From an uncultured Acidobacteriota bacterium (GTDB lineage Bacteria > Acidobacteriota > Thermoanaerobaculia > UBA5066 > DATFVB01), in NCBI GenBank assembly GCA_963813155.1, contig CAWEYG010000002.1, positions 64,001 to 128,000 on the forward strand: a DNA stretch of 64,000 nucleotides, in the 5' to 3' direction. The notes under the pieces were generated by a model. The model was given only the letters and a program-made list of their open reading frames with translations. It did no database searches and had not been told where the DNA came from. Below are positions 24,259 to 30,128 of the stretch, piece after piece. Positions within the stretch are counted from its first letter, which is position 1. Each line of letters opens with the position of its first letter. The position numbers and the translations under genes are program-made.

Positions 24259-24786
24259 ATGAAGAAAAATTGTCTTTTTACGCTCTTTGCGGCAATCTTC
24301 GCGCTCGCCATTTTCCGTTCCCTCGCGGCAGCGGTCCCGTCCGAGCCGCTGAAAGTCGGCGATGCCGCTCCGAATGCCGCGTCGGTCGACCAGGACGGCA
24401 AGCCCGTCCAGCTGTCGGACCTCTACGGCGGGGGGTGGACGCTCGTCTATTTCTACCCGAAGGCGGACACGCCGGGTTGCACCGCGGAAGCGTGCAGCCT
24501 GCGCGACGCGTTCGCGGACCTCACGAAAAAGGGCGTCACCGTCGTCGGAGTCAGCGCCGACAAGCCGGCCGAGCAGAATGCGTTCAAGCAGAAGTATCAG
24601 ATCCCGTTCACTCTGCTCGCCGACTCCGACAAAAAGGTCATCGCCGCGTTCGGCGTGCCGACGACGATGGGCTTTGCGAGCCGGCAGTCGTTCCTCATCA
24701 AGGGCGGCAGGGTCGCCTGGCGCGACCTGCACGCTTCGACGAAGGAACAGGCCGCGGACATCCTGAAAGTCGTCTCGGCGCAGTAG
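24259..24786 (+). CDS. bcp: Peroxiredoxin (BCP/PrxQ) with signal peptide
   Basis: YFYPKADTPGCTAEAC. Confidence 0.9.
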   Translation: MKKNCLFTLFAAIFALAIFRSLAAAVPSEPLKVGDAAPNAASVDQDGKPVQLSDLYGGGWTLVYFYPKADTPGCTAEACSLRDAFADLTKKGVTVVGVSADKPAEQNAFKQKYQIPFTLLADSDKKVIAAFGVPTTMGFASRQSFLIKGGRVAWRDLHASTKEQAADILKVVSAQ

Positions 24787-26787: not shown

Positions 26788-27360
26788 TTAGCGACCGATT
26801 CTCACGTGGAGACGCGGCAGCGGAATGTGGATCCGCGGCACCGGAATGCGGATGTTCAGGCCGGGGCGATACGCGTAGCGCGGGTAAACCCGGGGCGCCG
26901 CGTAAGGCACGGCGTAGCCGGGCGCATACCCGTCATAGCCGTCGGCGTAGCCGTCATAGGCATACGGGTCGGCGTAGCCGTCGTAAACCGGGTACGGGGC
27001 GGCGTAACCCTCATACCCGTAATACGGGGAGGCGTACGGGACGGCGTAGCCCCGAGATCCGCGGAACTCCCGGCCTCGAAAACCCTCGCCGCGAAATCCT
27101 TCGCTGCGAAAGCCGTCCCCCCGGCGTTGGAAGCTTCCCCCGCCGCGGCGTTCGACGCCTCCGCGGAAGTCTTCCCTGCGAGAGTCTCCCCTCCGGGAGT
27201 CTCCCCCGCGGCTGCGCCAGCCGGAGTCGCGCGAGCCGGATCGGCCGTCACCGCGGCCTCCATCACGAAAATCCTGGGCTGCGGACGGACGCGCGATCGA
27301 AAGAAAAGCAGCGACCGCAGCCACCGCGAGAATGCCCTTGGTCAGGTTTGGGTACCTCAT
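26788..27360 (-). CDS. Secreted low-complexity Gly/Arg/Tyr-rich protein
   Basis: Signal peptide, GFRG repeats, Y-D-G-Y-A repeats; RBS GGAGG; own promoter and terminator. Confidence 0.7.
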   Translation of the reverse strand: MRYPNLTKGILAVAAVAAFLSIARPSAAQDFRDGGRGDGRSGSRDSGWRSRGGDSRRGDSRREDFRGGVERRGGGSFQRRGDGFRSEGFRGEGFRGREFRGSRGYAVPYASPYYGYEGYAAPYPVYDGYADPYAYDGYADGYDGYAPGYAVPYAAPRVYPRYAYRPGLNIRIPVPRIHIPLPRLHVRIGR

Positions 27361-27387
27361 GATTGTTTCCTCCGCCTGCAACAGATC

Positions 27388-27402
27388 GCAATCACTATGC
27401 CA
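27388..27402 (-). promoter_or_regulatory. Sigma-54 promoter
   Basis: Minus strand TGGCATAGTGATTGC, 27 nt before ATG 27360. Confidence 0.7.
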
Positions 27403-27491
27403 TTCCACCGTGCTGGAACCAAGGAACTTCCGGACATCGGCCCGTCCAACCTGTTCGAAATAGCGGAGAACTGTCACCCGCCGAGGGCGGT

Positions 27492-27854
27492 CTACTTCCT
27501 CAGGAGCAGCTCCAGCTCGGCGCGGACGTCCTCCATCTTCACTCCGTGGTCCGCCTGCTTCCAGAGGACCTTCCCGTCGGCTGACCGGATGACCAGGCCG
27601 TGGCTCTCGAATCCGAGCGCCTTCACGATCTTCTCGTTCTCCGGCGTCGTCGCGTCCACGTTCTGCCCGCGGACTTTCCCCTTGTACTCCTGCTCGAGCC
27701 CGCTCACGGCAGGCTTCACTTTCGCGCAGATCGGTCAGCCGGGCATGTAGTAGTACGTCACCTCGAGGGGAGTTCGCTTCTCGTGTTGTGCGGCGCCGAG
27801 AGCCGCGGAGAAAAGAACCAGGGCTGCCAGGAACAGGTTGCGTCGAGTCGTCAT
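27492..27854 (-). CDS. Secreted thioredoxin-fold selenoprotein (UxxC; Sec at codon 40)
   Basis: RBS GGAGG plus ATG 27854; MTTRRNLFLAALVLFSAALGAAQHEKRTPLEVTYYYMPG-TGA-PICAKVKPAVSGLEQEYKGKV...; in-frame TGA at 27737-27735; SECIS-like hairpin downstream. Confidence 0.85.
27697..27715 (-). promoter_or_regulatory. Bacterial SECIS element (putative)
   Basis: AGCCUGC-CGUGA-GCGGGCU: 7-bp stem starting 19 nt after UGA, G at second loop position followed by U. Confidence 0.75.
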
Positions 27855-27885
27855 GAAACCTCCGTATTCGCCGAGCATACGCTCC

Positions 27886-28314
27886 TCACTCTCCCGCGGC
27901 GGCGGTTCCGCGCGCAGTTATTTCGGAAATCGCGAAGTCGGCGTCCGGGTGCAGCTCGAGGAACGGGCCGTCGATGTCCACGACGACCGGGCCGCCGAAG
28001 GAAAGCGCGGCGCCGGCTGCCATCGGATCACGCTCGCAAACATCGTGCGCGCGAGTCCCGGGCTCGATTTCGAGTCGGAGGAACCGGGGAAGCTCTGCGG
28101 AGGCGATGCCGATCCGAAACGCGTCCAGCTCCACGTCGATCGTCCAGAAGCCGTCCGTCGAGTGTTGGGCTTCTCGGACCGGACTCCCGGATCCCTCCGC
28201 CGCGCAGCCCGTGTCGGTCCAGCCGGAGATGCCGAGGAACTTGAACGGGGTCGTGAGGAACGCGATCCAGCGCGAGAACCACCCGAGGCTCTCCTGCGGC
28301 TCGCGGGACAGCAT
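27886..28314 (-). CDS. Hypothetical protein (possible OB-fold-like)
   Basis: C-terminal part of ORF 27886..30120 from MLSREPQ; DGFWTIDVELD...RLEIEP...LELHP. Confidence 0.55.
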   Translation of the reverse strand: MLSREPQESLGWFSRWIAFLTTPFKFLGISGWTDTGCAAEGSGSPVREAQHSTDGFWTIDVELDAFRIGIASAELPRFLRLEIEPGTRAHDVCERDPMAAGAALSFGGPVVVDIDGPFLELHPDADFAISEITARGTAAAGE

Positions 28315-28459
28315 CGCGATCGTGCGATTTGCGTCGCACGACTGAGGCGCGAGGAGCGCGCGGCCGGTGCGCGCCGTGCGGCGCTTTCCGGCGTGGTACC
28401 ACAGGTGACGGGCGGTCACGAGGGCCTCGCTCGGCAGGCACGCGGCCCGGACCCCGGGC

Positions 28460-28607
28460 CAGGCGCTCGTCCGCAGGCCATGAGTGAGGCGCACGAGGAA
28501 CTTCGGTGTCAGCGGAGAGGCGAGATCTCGCGCCGAACGCTGAGGAGCGGGAGTCGATCCATCCGATCGATCGCGCCGTGCCAGCGGACGAGTGCCGAGC
28601 TCCGCGG
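28460..28607. repeat. Dispersed repeat, element A copy 1
   Basis: About 150 bp, closely similar to revcomp of 45751-45903 (shared blocks CGTCCGCAGGCCATGAGTGAGGCGCACGAGGAACT and GCCGTGCCAGCGGACGAGTGCCGAG). Confidence 0.9.
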
Positions 28608-28639
28608 CGGGCAGGCGCGAACGGGCCGAGCGAATCCCC

Positions 28640-29658
28640 TCACGGACCCCCACCGCCTTCCACGCGTCCCGGACCGCCTTCTGCTCCGCCTTCCCCGGCC
28701 CGTAGAGCTCGGCGGAGATGGATATCGTCGCGGCCGCGGCTTCTTTGAACGTCGAGGTGTGCGTCAGTCTCTGCGTCAGCGCGACGTACCAGATCTGCCC
28801 CGCCTTCTCCCAGGAGTTCCCCCCGATCGCGATCGCGGCGAGCGCGAACGCCCGGTTCGGGATCCCGGAGTTGATGTGCACGCCCCCGTTGTCGTCGTAC
28901 CCGTCGTAGAAGCCCCTCATGTTCGCCGGCTGTGGGTCTTTCCCGAGGACGGGGTCGTCGTAGGCGGTGCCAGGCTCCGTCATCGAGCGCAGCGCGACCC
29001 CCTTCACCTTTTTCGTGAAGAGCCCCGCGCCGATCAGCCAATCGGCCTTCGCCGCCGCCTGCTTCCCCCTCCACTGCTTGACCATCGACCCGAAGACGTC
29101 GGAGAAGCTTTCGTTCAGGGCGCCCGGCTGCCCCTCGTAGTCGAAGTTCGCTTCCGTCCCGGTCACGCCGTGCGTCAGCTCGTGCCCGATGACGTCGACC
29201 GCCAGGGTGAACCGGTTGAAGATCGTTCCGTCGCCGTCGCCGTACACCATCTGCGAACCGTTCCAGAACGCGTTGTCGTACTTGTGTCCGTAGTGCACGG
29301 AGGAGTCGAGCCGCATTCCCCTTCCGTCGATCGAGTTGCGGCAGAAGATCTTCTCGTAAAAATCGTACGTCGTGCCGGCGCCGTCGTAGGCCTCGTTGAC
29401 CGCGGCGTCCTTCGATTTCGCGCCGTCCTCGCCGCGGACGAGGTTGCCCGGCAGGACCTCGCTTCCGTGCTCGTCGTAGACCGTTCGGCGCTCCTCCCCC
29501 GCCGGGACCGCCGGACACGTTGCGCCGAGGACATCGCGGTGGCCGCGCAGCCGGGCGGTGAGGAGTCTCGTCGCGTCGGCGCACGCGCGCTCGGCGGGAG
29601 TCCCGTTCTTCGAGATCCGGTCGAGGATGTACGGCGGGACGATGAATCGCACCGTCAT
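28640..29658 (-). CDS. M4 metallopeptidase (protealysin-like)
   Basis: Short propeptide FIVPPYIL, NAFWNG, HELTH, GALNESFSD, GGVHINSGIPN, ending AWKAVGV; likely stop TGA 28642-28640 is off by one indel. Confidence 0.9.
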
Positions 29659-30128
29659 TTCGACGTCTCCACCTTCAGCTCGACACGGCGCAGCCCGCTC
29701 GCGAGCCCGGTCTGTGAGTCGAACTCGATCGCGTAGAGCCCGGGCGACAGCTCTTCCGGAGAAGCGAGCACGCCCTTGAACGCGGCGGCCGCCCGGCCGA
29801 GCCCGCCGACGGCTGTCAGGATCTCGGCGGCTCCATTCGTCCGGGAATCGCCGATCGAGGTCAGGTTCCAACCCTGGTCCAGCGTCGCTTTCGCGTCGAC
29901 CCCGTTGAAGCCGGCCCGCACCCGAAACGCATACTCCTCGTTCGTCTTCGGCAGGTAGATGACCGTCGTCTCGATCGATCCCTTCGCGTCGGTCACGAGC
30001 AGGTACGGCTGGGGCCGGTAGAACCGGGCTCCTCCCTTGTAGTCCGCGTCCGACGCAACCCTTTGAATGGAAACGCCCGCGCACCCGGCGAGGCAGAACA
30101 GAACGGGGAAAAACCGACAAATCTTCAT
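29655..30128 (-). CDS. Hypothetical lipoprotein, translationally coupled to the M4 peptidase
   Basis: Lipobox LAGC; GARFYRPQPYLLVT; ATGA overlap. Confidence 0.7.
   Translation of the reverse strand: MKICRFFPVLFCLAGCAGVSIQRVASDADYKGGARFYRPQPYLLVTDAKGSIETTVIYLPKTNEEYAFRVRAGFNGVDAKATLDQGWNLTSIGDSRTNGAAEILTAVGGLGRAAAAFKGVLASPEELSPGLYAIEFDSQTGLASGLRRVELKVETSK

What the first reader, a model, noticed from the sequence alone, without database searches (positions are those of the whole stretch)
27492..27854. Hidden secreted selenoprotein: thioredoxin-like UxxC with a SECIS hairpin
Seen: the ORF track calls only a 75-aa fragment. Upstream in the same frame are an RBS (GGAGG), ATG 27854, a signal peptide and VTYYYMPG-TGA-CCG-ATC-TGC, i.e. 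U-P-I-C at the position of the thioredoxin CxxC after a beta strand. The hairpin AGCCUGC-CGUGA-GCGGGCU starts 19 nt after the UGA. Established: bacterial SECIS elements lie just 3' of UGA with a G early in the apical loop, and UxxC is the typical selenoprotein redox motif. The usual cis-Pro appears to be replaced (GFESHGLVI). Inference: a 120-aa exported selenoprotein, possibly of an undescribed family, which standard gene callers would miss.
Basis: partly seen in the sequence, partly recalled or inferred. Interest (0 to 1): 0.88.

Follow-up and report, generated by a model that had tools for sequence, protein, structure and literature searches.

The report
Unannotated exported thioredoxin-fold selenoprotein gene
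The apparent stop codon is almost certainly a selenocysteine codon inside one gene for a small exported thioredoxin-like redox protein, which gene callers cut to a fragment; the mechanism is ordinary, but no curated protein family covers it.

Summary
The minus-strand gene 27854..27492 encodes a 120-aa precursor: a signal peptide, then a thioredoxin fold (AlphaFold pLDDT 95) with U40-P-I-C43 at the CxxC position.

- **Codon conservation:** the in-frame TGA (27737..27735) sits at the same codon in all 87 distinct orthologous genes pooled from Acidobacteriota and a few other MAGs. Two more were seen by eye.
- **Sec/Cys pair:** more distant relatives carry Cys at that column (27 of 34).
- **Second Sec lineage:** a low-GC lineage that databases show as Trp is also TGA in its DNA.
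- **Hairpin:** AGCCUGC-CGUGA-GCGGGCU (27715..27697) meets every published bacterial SECIS criterion. Its synonymous sites are frozen, and 5 of 7 stem pairs show compensatory changes.
- **Machinery:** the genome has selA, selB, selD (itself with an in-frame TGA) and tRNA-Sec. TGA is otherwise its commonest stop.

No Pfam or NCBIfam family reaches its cut-off, and the passages I read of the 2026 selenoprotein catalogue do not name the family. The usual cis-Pro is replaced by an invariant His-Gly.

The substrate is unknown and no neighbouring gene is conserved. This scan met the same family earlier on other DNA (three windows). It is a new family of a well-known kind.

The parts
27859..27863 (-). 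Shine-Dalgarno-like GGAGG, 4 nt before the ATG
   Evidence: Read directly from the sequence. That it acts as the ribosome-binding site is inferred.
27492..27854 (-). Whole gene: ATG 27854 to TAG 27494..27492. It encodes a 120-aa precursor with Sec at codon 40.
   Evidence: The start is supported by orthologs that begin MTTRR.../MKTRR.... Full-length matches, each with exactly one TGA, occur in 26 of 61 related genomes, G000 included.
27789..27854 (-). Signal peptide, residues 1-22 (MTTRRNLFLAALVLFSAALGAA). Cleavage after G-A-A is inferred.
   Evidence: A basic n-region plus a hydrophobic h-region is present in 86 of 86 readable ortholog N-termini. About 17 carry a lipobox instead (own heuristic, no SignalP). 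The cleavage site is inference.
27735..27737 (-). Sec codon UGA (codon 40)
   Evidence: TGA at the same codon in 87 of 87 distinct orthologous genes, in L086 and L129 and in the low-GC lineage L139-L141. Cys stands at this column in 27 of 34 distant relatives.
27726..27737 (-). Redox motif U40-P-I-C43
   Evidence: It aligns to the two Cys of WCGPC in the solved thioredoxin 6bkv. It lies at the start of helix 1 of the model.
27697..27715 (-). SECIS hairpin: 7-bp stem AGCCUGC/GCGGGCU with 5-nt loop CGUGA. There are 26 nt between the UGA and the loop.
   Evidence: Energy -10.6 kcal/mol. RNAalifold recovers the helix. 97% of cells pair, against 17-44% when the partner is slid. Compensatory changes occur in 3 of 7 pairs among 85 distinct rows and in 5 of 7 pairs once the low-GC lineage is added. 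Synonymous variation is frozen in codons +9 to +12.
27597..27602 (-). H85-G86 (H58-G59 of the mature alignment), in place of the x-cisPro of thioredoxins
   Evidence: S-H-G-L aligns to S-I-P-T of 6bkv. Gly is kept in 34 of 34 and His in 29 of 34 family representatives.
27546..27551 (-). D102-H103 in the strand 4 to helix 3 loop. The His tracks with the redox motif.
   Evidence: Invariant in 23 Sec orthologs. His is present in 24 of 29 relatives that have C/W-x-x-C, against 1 of 5 without it. Its closeness to the active site is inferred from thioredoxin topology and was not measured.
27492..27719 (-). The 75-aa fragment that table-11 gene callers report (GTG 27719 to TAG)
   Evidence: Of the 120 database hits listed, 117 are such fragments of 71-81 aa.

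Best explanation
One gene (27854..27492, minus strand) encodes a 120-aa precursor of an extracytoplasmic thioredoxin-fold selenoprotein.

**Sec insertion.** During translation the ribosome reaches UGA-40. The mRNA hairpin 27715..27697 has the loop CGUGA, with G-U at loop positions 2-3 and 26 nt between UGA and loop. It recruits SelB with Sec-tRNA(Sec), so selenocysteine is inserted instead of termination.

**Export.** The N-terminal signal peptide directs export. In this order it is of the signal-peptidase-I type. In other classes the protein is a lipoprotein.

**Active site.** The mature domain of about 98 aa has the order strand-helix-strand-helix-strand-strand-helix. It presents Sec40 at the N-terminus of helix 1 as the attacking nucleophile, and Cys43 as its partner in a selenenylsulfide/selenol-thiol couple. 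The protein therefore most likely acts as a periplasmic selenol/thiol-disulfide oxidoreductase. An invariant His-Gly replaces the usual x-cisPro loop. A second His (H103) probably flanks the active site.

**Shown here:** the gene structure; the conservation of the UGA and of both flanks; the Sec/Cys pairing; hairpin conservation and covariation; the presence of the Sec machinery; the fold.

**Inferred:** actual Sec insertion, export and the cleavage site, the redox chemistry, and the substrate (unknown).
For: **Gene and codon**
- The read-through ORF and motif are as described.
- 26 of 61 related genomes (G000 included) have a full-length match, each with exactly one TGA.
- 21 of 401 genomes sampled across the phylum do so as well, 16 of them outside the order.
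- Pooling all loci gives 87 distinct genes, and 87 have TGA at that codon.
- Codons upstream of the TGA vary at third positions while the residues stay fixed: V, T and L at -8, -7 and -3.

**Sec/Cys pair**
- 27 of 34 full-length distant representatives have Cys at the column.
- The 2 of 34 with Trp belong to a lineage that is TGA in its DNA.

**SECIS**
- It fits the published model of loop 3-9 nt, stem 4-16 bp, G in the first two loop positions followed by G or U, spacing 16-37 nt and MFE <= -7.5 (section 5 of PMC13188914). The values here are loop 5, stem 7, G2-U3, spacing 26 and MFE -10.6.
- Synonymous entropy is 0-0.4 at codons +9 to +12, against 0.9-1.9 at other four-fold codons.
- 3 of 7 pairs have both-side changes in 85 distinct rows, and 0 of 500 shuffles reach that.
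- 5 of 7 pairs do so in a 34-row subset that I chose to span the diversity, and 0 of 500 shuffles reach that.
- The low-GC lineage keeps the loop CGUGA and the offset with three switched stem pairs, although the peptide there differs (TIVNGL against PAVSGL).
- The genome's own selD and fdhA hairpins also have G-U at loop positions 2-3.

**Machinery**
- selA, selB, selD and tRNA-Sec are present.
- SelA is in all 26 carrier genomes of the related set.

**No code reassignment**
- TGA closes 1601 of 2430 long open frames in G000.
- TGA is the terminal stop of this same gene in 38 of 87 orthologs.

**Fold**
- pLDDT 95.1.
- Thioredoxins at TM 0.73-0.78 and at Z up to 13.5 with rmsd 1.7 A over 87 residues.
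- U and C fall on the two Cys of WCGPC.

**Export**
- 86 of 86 N-termini have signal-peptide features.
Against: - There is no direct evidence of Sec insertion or of expression.
- The hairpin's stability in this single sequence is only modestly unusual (z -2.44). The 58-nt context is not unusual (z -0.69).
- Within the high-GC orthologs the stem is so conserved that covariation rests on few events (3 cells in 595). The stronger count comes from a subset I selected, and mainly from one extra lineage of two distinct sequences.
- A few orthologs have a mismatched pair: 5 of 175 cells, and L114 has C.A.
- Rfam gave no SECIS match.
- No neighbouring gene is conserved, so the role gets no support from context. 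The largest real neighbour cluster covers 6 of 41 loci.
- The redox role is inferred from the fold and motif alone. Loss of the cis-Pro, together with two conserved His residues, fits a metal site as well.
- Signal peptides were judged by my own heuristic, not by SignalP, LipoP or TatP.
Confidence: 0.85

Rival explanations
1. It is a real exported selenoprotein, but not a disulfide oxidoreductase. Sec40, Cys43, His85 and His103 would form an extracytoplasmic binding site for a metal or metalloid, such as Cu(I), Zn or Hg. The protein would then act as a selenolate-based chaperone, scavenger or sensor.
For: - The cis-Pro that defines redox-active thioredoxins is replaced by an invariant H-G.
- The second His tracks with the C/U-x-x-C motif, in 24 of 29 relatives against 1 of 5.
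- By thioredoxin topology, both His residues lie in loops that flank the active site (inference).
- From my own recall and no call here: Sco copper chaperones are thioredoxin folds that use two Cys plus one His, and cis-Pro mutants of human thioredoxin bind Fe-S clusters.
Against: - No metal-binding family was hit at E <= 1.
- The motif spacing is CxxC, not the CxxxC of Sco.
- The nearest structures are all plain thioredoxins.
- The His-to-active-site distances could not be measured, because no model coordinates were available.
- No metal-homeostasis neighbour is conserved.
Confidence: 0.2
2. The UGA is decoded, but not as Sec. It would be read through by near-cognate decoding, or by a lineage-wide reassignment of TGA to Trp, Gly or Cys.
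For: Two database gene calls print Trp at the position (P0009; P0157 and P0178). One prints Ser (P0003).
Against: - TGA is the commonest stop in G000, closing 1601 of 2430 long frames. It ends this same gene in 38 of 87 orthologs.
- The Trp lineage is TGA in its DNA and carries the hairpin.
- The full Sec machinery is present.
- A conserved hairpin with frozen synonymous sites has no role in plain read-through.
Confidence: 0.03
3. The TGA is a true stop. The locus would hold a 39-aa leader ORF and a separate 75-aa gene, or a pseudogene.
For: Table-11 gene callers report only the 75-aa fragment. Two assemblies have frameshifted copies: L032/L134 and L129.
Against: - A nonsense lesion would not persist at one codon in 87 of 87 distinct genes across classes while both flanks stay under purifying selection in one frame.
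- The fragment lacks strand 1 and the active site of the fold.
- The signal peptide would be separated from its cargo.
- The Cys homologs are contiguous proteins.
Confidence: 0.01

Closest known systems
Sec-containing thioredoxin and glutaredoxin of bacteria (UxxC; listed under PF00085 and PF00462 in Table 1 of PMC13188914)
   Same: - Thioredoxin fold.
- Sec at the N-terminal, nucleophilic position of the CxxC motif.
- A SECIS hairpin in the coding region just 3' of the UGA.
- Cys-containing homologs exist.
   Different: - It scores below the Pfam cut-offs: 19.6 against 23.5 bits for PF00085 and 14.7 against 22.9 for PF00462.
- It has only 14-26% identity to solved thioredoxins.
- It is exported.
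- Its motif is G-U-P-I-C, not W-C-G-P-C.
- The cis-Pro is replaced by H-G.
- It lacks the extra N-terminal strand and helix of classical thioredoxin.
Predicted exported UxxC thioredoxin-fold selenoproteins: thiol:disulfide interchange protein (PF13098), DsbA-like (PF01323), DsbG-like (NF041057), and redoxin and TlpA-like families (PF08534, cd02966), as listed in PMC13188914
   Same: Extracytoplasmic location, thioredoxin fold and a UxxC redox centre, predicted by the same kind of comparative evidence.
   Different: - None of those Pfam or NCBIfam models appears for this protein at E <= 1.
- Those families carry inserted domains or are markedly longer. This one is a minimal 93-98 aa domain.
- The cd02966 model could not be tested here.
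Small thioredoxin-like selenoprotein families in NCBIfam: VPGUxxT family (NF041383), HUIPC-motif family (NF047660), SaoT (NF040730), GOS_C (NF045500), and Sec.1/Sec.2 (PF13192)
   Same: Short thioredoxin-like proteins with Sec in or beside the redox motif. They are typically truncated in databases.
   Different: - No hit to any of them at E <= 1 for the window's protein.
- Only one Cys relative (P0174) touches SaoT, at 19.3 bits against a cut-off of 65.
- The motifs differ: here it is [LM]PG-U-[PMAS]-[IV]-C.
Bacterial SECIS consensus (bSECIS model summarised in PMC13188914). The E. coli fdhF hairpin as the classical SelB-binding example is from my own recall.
   Same: A stem-loop immediately 3' of the UGA with G-U early in a small apical loop. 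Every numeric criterion of the model is met.
   Different: - The sequence is unrelated to the Rfam families searched, with no match at E <= 10.
- The 17-nt core CCCGCCGUGAGCGGGCU is nearly invariant across classes, which is more conserved than the protein.

Membership tests
Bacterial selenoprotein gene (Sec-UGA with bSECIS) | An in-frame UGA conserved at the same codon in orthologs, with conserved coding sequence on both sides | tested here: met
   87 of 87 distinct orthologous genes, plus L086 and L129. Codons upstream vary at third positions while their residues stay fixed.
Bacterial selenoprotein gene (Sec-UGA with bSECIS) | Homologs with Cys aligned to the UGA (a Sec/Cys pair) | tested here: met
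   Cys in 27 of 34 full-length representatives. These were chosen by length and coverage from the 150 listed.
Bacterial selenoprotein gene (Sec-UGA with bSECIS) | A hairpin meeting the bSECIS model: loop 3-9 nt, stem 4-16 bp, G in the first two loop positions, 16-37 nt from UGA to loop, MFE <= -7.5 kcal/mol | tested here: met
   The criteria were read in PMC13188914 section 5. Here the loop is 5 nt (CGUGA), the stem 7 bp, G is at position 2 followed by U, the spacing is 26 nt and the MFE is -10.6. The bSECISearch program itself was not run.
Bacterial selenoprotein gene (Sec-UGA with bSECIS) | The RNA structure is supported by evolution, not only by energy | tested here: met
   Both-side changes occur in 3 of 7 pairs (0 of 500 shuffles) and in 5 of 7 pairs in a selected 34-row subset (0 of 500 shuffles). 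Synonymous sites are frozen. The events are few, and most come from one extra lineage.
Bacterial selenoprotein gene (Sec-UGA with bSECIS) | The genome encodes SelA, SelB, SelD and tRNA-Sec | tested here: met
   SelA is in all 26 carrier genomes of the 61-genome set.
Bacterial selenoprotein gene (Sec-UGA with bSECIS) | Selenium is actually incorporated at the UGA | not testable with these tools
   This needs 75Se labelling or mass spectrometry.
Thioredoxin family (Pfam PF00085) | A score at or above the Pfam gathering cut-off | tested here: not met
   19.6 bits against a cut-off of 23.5. The Cys relatives score 16-17 bits.
Thioredoxin family (Pfam PF00085) | Thioredoxin fold with CxxC at the N-terminus of helix 1 | tested here: met
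Thioredoxin family (Pfam PF00085) | A conserved cis-Pro loop opposite the active site | tested here: not met
   S-H-G-L aligns to S-I-P-T of 6bkv. Gly is kept in 34 of 34 representatives. That the cis-Pro is a defining feature is from my own recall.
Glutaredoxin (PF00462) and glutaredoxin-like DUF836 (PF05768) | A score at or above the Pfam gathering cut-off | tested here: not met
   14.7 against 22.9 bits, and 16.5 against 26 bits. One Cys relative (P0166) just passes PF00462, at 23.5 against 22.9 bits.
Catalogued small thioredoxin-like selenoprotein families (NF041383, NF047660, NF040730, NF045500, PF13192, PF13098) | A match to the family model | tested here: not met
   None is listed for P0001 at E <= 1.
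Sco/SenC-type copper chaperone (thioredoxin fold, CxxxC plus His) | CxxxC spacing and a match to the family model | tested here: not met
   The motif here is U-x-x-C, and no such Pfam hit appears at E <= 1. The Sco features are from my own recall.
Twin-arginine (Tat) exported protein | A Tat signal: an [ST]-R-R-x-F-L-K-like motif or a match to a Tat-signal model | tested here: inconclusive
   T-R-R-N-L-F is present here, and an [ST]RRx-hydrophobic-hydrophobic motif occurs in 34 of 87 orthologs. No Tat-signal model was hit at E <= 1. The lipoprotein forms lack RR.

The most novel reading that the evidence does not exclude
The family is not a disulfide oxidoreductase. It would be an obligately selenocysteine-dependent extracytoplasmic binding or sensing module, in which Sec40, Cys43, His85 and His103 form a selenolate-containing site for a metal, metalloid or reactive chalcogen species. 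Loss of the cis-Pro would be the change that made this site possible. If so, it would be a periplasmic selenoprotein that uses Sec as a ligand rather than as a redox nucleophile, in abundant soil Acidobacteriota. I know of no other case from recall, and I did not search for one.
Probability: 0.15. Interest if true: 0.8.

Novelty: new member of a known kind. Interest (0 to 1): 0.5.

Why it matters
- **Annotation:** the gene is missed or truncated almost everywhere. Of the 120 database hits listed, 117 are fragments of 71-81 aa, and the one with an NCBI name is called a hypothetical protein. The selenoproteome of soil Acidobacteriota is therefore under-counted.
- **Strict use of Sec:** no ortholog above about 55% identity uses Cys. 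The SECIS core is conserved more strongly than the protein.
- **A tractable test case:** this makes it a clean natural case for asking why Sec cannot be replaced in an exported redox site. The SECIS and SelB pair is also compact enough to study.
- **Possible different chemistry:** the H-G replacement of the cis-Pro and the co-varying second His point to chemistry that may differ from classical thioredoxins.
- **Practical use:** a family model built from alignments A2 and A4 would let annotation pipelines call the gene correctly.

Tried and rejected
- **Rfam:** a scan of 27400..27900 at E <= 10 gave only three chance snoRNA-like hits and no SECIS family.
- **Gene context:** clustering the flanking ORFs of 41 loci gave no conserved neighbour. 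The top clusters were shadow ORFs overlapping the gene itself, and the largest real neighbour cluster spans 6 loci.
- **Local genes:** these are an M4 protease upstream, a Gly/Arg/Tyr-rich secreted protein downstream and an exported peroxiredoxin 3 kb away. They are not conserved partners.
- **Promoters and terminators:** no promoter-like site was found in 27200..28100. The only terminator-like sites lie inside the next gene.
- **Expression:** no RNA holder was listed among the 22 public runs, so expression could not be addressed.
- **Read check:** only Logan contigs were available, not raw reads. One holder may be the source sample, and 5 differences were not shown. I therefore give this check little weight.
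- **Model coordinates:** none are exposed, so the His-to-Sec distances could not be measured.
- **First covariation test:** 25 close orthologs gave 0 compensatory pairs. Only deeper sampling changed that.
- **Literature:** four searches found no description of this family. The groundwater-MAG survey cited in the review as ref. 66 is not in the library. The family tables of BSepDB and deep-Sep are in supplements, which were closed.
- **Rejected readings:** nonsense mutation or pseudogene, and genome-wide TGA reassignment (see the rival explanations).

Full report
**Observation.** On the minus strand, table 11 gives only a 75-aa ORF, 27492..27719. Upstream in the same frame are GGAGG (27863..27859), ATG 27854, the N-terminus MTTRRNLFLAALVLFSAALGAA and VTYYYMPG-TGA-CCG-ATC-TGC. 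Reading TGA as Sec gives a 120-aa protein with U40-P-I-C43. The hairpin AGCCUGC-CGUGA-GCGGGCU lies at 27715..27697, 19 nt after the UGA. Alone it folds at -10.6 kcal/mol with z = -2.44, and 7 of 200 shuffles fold as well. The 58-nt context is not unusual, with z = -0.69. The description is therefore accurate, but the single sequence is only suggestive.

**Sec machinery.** The window's genome (3.81 Mb, 23 contigs, 66% GC, 90.8% complete) has four components:
- selA (384 bits);
- selB (351 bits, above its cut-off of 242);
- selD (332 bits, with one in-frame TGA of its own);
- one tRNA-Sec with anticodon tca.

TGA is still the ordinary stop. It closes 1601 of 2430 open frames of at least 500 codons in this genome, and it ends this same gene in 38 of 87 orthologs. 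A reassigned code is therefore excluded.

**Orthologs.**
- Six-frame searches found a full-length match with exactly one TGA in 26 of 61 related genomes, G000 included. Two further weak hits are unrelated.
- The same holds for 21 of 401 genomes sampled across the phylum, 16 of them outside the window's order. Two weak hits lack a TGA.
- A scan of one genome per species returned 73 loci. The MAGs are labelled Thermoanaerobaculia, Acidobacteriota, Polarisedimenticolia, Eisenbacteria and Myxococcaceae.
- Pooled, 115 loci gave 110 with the motif and 87 distinct genes, and all 87 have TGA at the same codon.
- L086 and L129 failed my regular expression but also have TGA. Three loci are cut by contig ends.
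- L129 and the G001 copy (L032/L134) are frameshifted.
- Upstream of the TGA, residues are fixed while third positions vary, so that part is translated in this frame.
- SelA is present in 60 of the 61 related genomes, including all 26 carriers.
- Rows from genomes flagged unpublished (G008, G210) are in these counts, and no conclusion depends on them.

**Sec/Cys pair.** Public gene calls are almost all fragments: 117 of the 120 listed hits are 71-81 aa. An exhaustive profile search found 170 representatives at E <= 0.001.
- I fetched 34 full-length ones, chosen by length and coverage.
- At the Sec column, 27 have Cys, 2 have Trp and 5 have other residues.
- The Trp lineage was recovered as DNA (L139-L141, 44-48% GC) and is TGA there.
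- The family therefore shows the classical Sec/Cys pattern, and it has a second Sec-using lineage.

**SECIS.** The review's model asks for a loop of 3-9 nt, a stem of 4-16 bp, G in the first two loop positions (mostly followed by G or U), 16-37 nt from UGA to loop, and MFE <= -7.5 (PMC13188914, section 5 read in full).
- Here the values are loop 5 nt, stem 7 bp, G2-U3, spacing 26 nt and MFE -10.6.
- In 25 close orthologs, RNAalifold predicts just this helix. There were 0 compensatory pairs, only wobble changes.
- Synonymous variation nevertheless collapses at codons +9 to +12: GCC in 25 of 25, GTG in 25 of 25, AGY, and GGG in 23 of 25. Other four-fold codons show entropy of 0.9-1.9.
- With 85 distinct rows, 3 of 7 pairs show both-side changes, and 0 of 500 shuffles reach that. 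97.1% of cells pair, against 17-44% when the partner is slid. One example is L099, where an Ala-to-Thr change is matched by a synonymous Ser change.
- The low-GC lineage has CGACCAU-CGUGA-AUGGUCU at the same offset. The loop is identical and three pairs are switched, although the peptide differs.
- In a 34-row subset that I chose to span the diversity, keeping the variant rows, 5 of 7 pairs covary and 0 of 500 shuffles reach that. RNAalifold recovers the helix again.
- This genome's own selD hairpin (loop AGUUC) and fdhA hairpin (loop with GUU) also have G-U at loop positions 2-3.
- Rfam has no match.

**Protein.**
- AlphaFold2, run on 23 mature orthologs, gives pLDDT 95.1 and the element order strand-helix-strand-helix-strand-strand-helix. 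L019 was left out because of its C-terminal extension, and L023 because it comes from an unpublished genome.
- Foldseek finds thioredoxins at TM 0.73-0.78 and 14-26% identity.
- A Foldseek-independent search also puts thioredoxins first, with Z 13.5, rmsd 1.7 A and 87 residues aligned.
- A profile alignment to the solved thioredoxin 6bkv places U and C on the two Cys of WCGPC, and S-H-G-L on S-I-P-T. The cis-Pro is therefore replaced by Gly, preceded by His.
- Across the 34 representatives, Gly is kept in 34, His85 in 29 and His103 in 25. His103 is present in 24 of 29 with the redox motif, against 1 of 5 without it.

**Export.** All 86 readable N-termini have a basic n-region and a hydrophobic core. 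About 17 have a true lipobox, and three of my 20 regular-expression hits look false. A Tat-like [ST]RR motif occurs in 34 of 87, and no Tat model is hit.

**Mechanism.**
1. SelB with Sec-tRNA(Sec) is recruited by the hairpin and inserts Sec at UGA-40.
2. The precursor is exported and cleaved.
3. Sec40 at the start of helix 1 attacks substrates and cycles with Cys43.

This is inference from the fold, the motif and comparison. The substrate is unknown, because no neighbouring gene is conserved. A metal-binding reading (Sec, Cys and two His) is a serious rival at about 0.2.

**Comparison and novelty.**
- Pfam and NCBIfam give only sub-threshold thioredoxin and glutaredoxin hits for the Sec form. 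One Cys relative (P0166) just passes the glutaredoxin cut-off, and the other nine tested stay below every cut-off.
- None of the catalogued small thioredoxin-like selenoprotein families appears.
- For the 2026 review I saw the outline and abstract, passages of its Table 1, and section 5 in full.
- For deep-Sep and BSepDB I saw passages only.
- None of these names the family. Their supplementary tables were closed, and the groundwater-MAG survey they cite is not held.
- Earlier notes of this scan describe the same family on three other windows, and several other exported thioredoxin-fold selenoproteins of Acidobacteriota. My independent tests agree with them.

**Verdict.** This is a real, mis-annotated selenoprotein gene. 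It is a new family of a known kind, of moderate interest.

Noticed in passing
G000 C3:921620-922561 (L010), outside the window: The genome's selD is itself a selenoprotein gene (…AGSAG-U-ACK…). Its hairpin GGGUC-AGUUC-GACCU starts 11 nt after the UGA.
   Followed up: partly
G000 C19:7331-10401 (L142-L146), outside the window: The formate dehydrogenase alpha gene has the expected Sec site (ARV-U-HGP) with a strong hairpin. The match is spread over several frames with extra TGAs, which suggests frameshifts from assembly errors or a decayed gene.
   Followed up: partly
window 27886-30120 (-): An M4 thermolysin-type metalloprotease with a protealysin propeptide ends 31 nt upstream of the selenoprotein start, on the same strand. 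No promoter-like site lies between them, so co-transcription is possible. The pairing is not conserved in other genomes.
   Followed up: partly
window 24259-24786 (+): An AhpC/TSA (BCP-like) peroxiredoxin with a hydrophobic N-terminus lies 3 kb away. It is another probably exported redox protein.
   Followed up: no
window 26788-27477 (-), likely start ATG 27361: The downstream ORF encodes a signal peptide followed by a low-complexity Gly/Arg/Asp and Tyr/Pro-rich sequence. It has no Pfam family.
   Followed up: no
window 27478-27490 (-): The hairpin CCGCC-CUC-GGCGG follows the stop codon directly, without a T-run. The terminator scan did not list it.
   Followed up: no
L032/L134 (G001) and L129: Two orthologs keep the TGA and the hairpin but change frame shortly after the hairpin. 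They are either assembly errors or recent pseudogenes.
   Followed up: no
L019 (G040): This ortholog lacks the usual stop and runs on for about 45 more residues to a TGA.
   Followed up: no
P0003 (database protein, 125 aa): This full-length relative, 60% identical, prints Ser at the Sec column (LPP-S-PIC). It may be a TCA variant or a calling artefact.
   Followed up: no
N-termini of the 87 orthologs (window 27840-27854 for this gene): A twin-arginine-like T-R-R-x-hydrophobic-hydrophobic motif occurs in 34 of 87 signal peptides, mostly in the window's order. The lipoprotein forms in other classes lack it. Whether export goes by Tat or Sec is open.
   Followed up: partly
L139-L141 (metagenome contigs, 44-48% GC): A second Sec-using lineage of the family exists in low-GC organisms, as lipoproteins with the motif PG-U-PFC. 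Public gene calls translate its TGA as Trp.
   Followed up: partly
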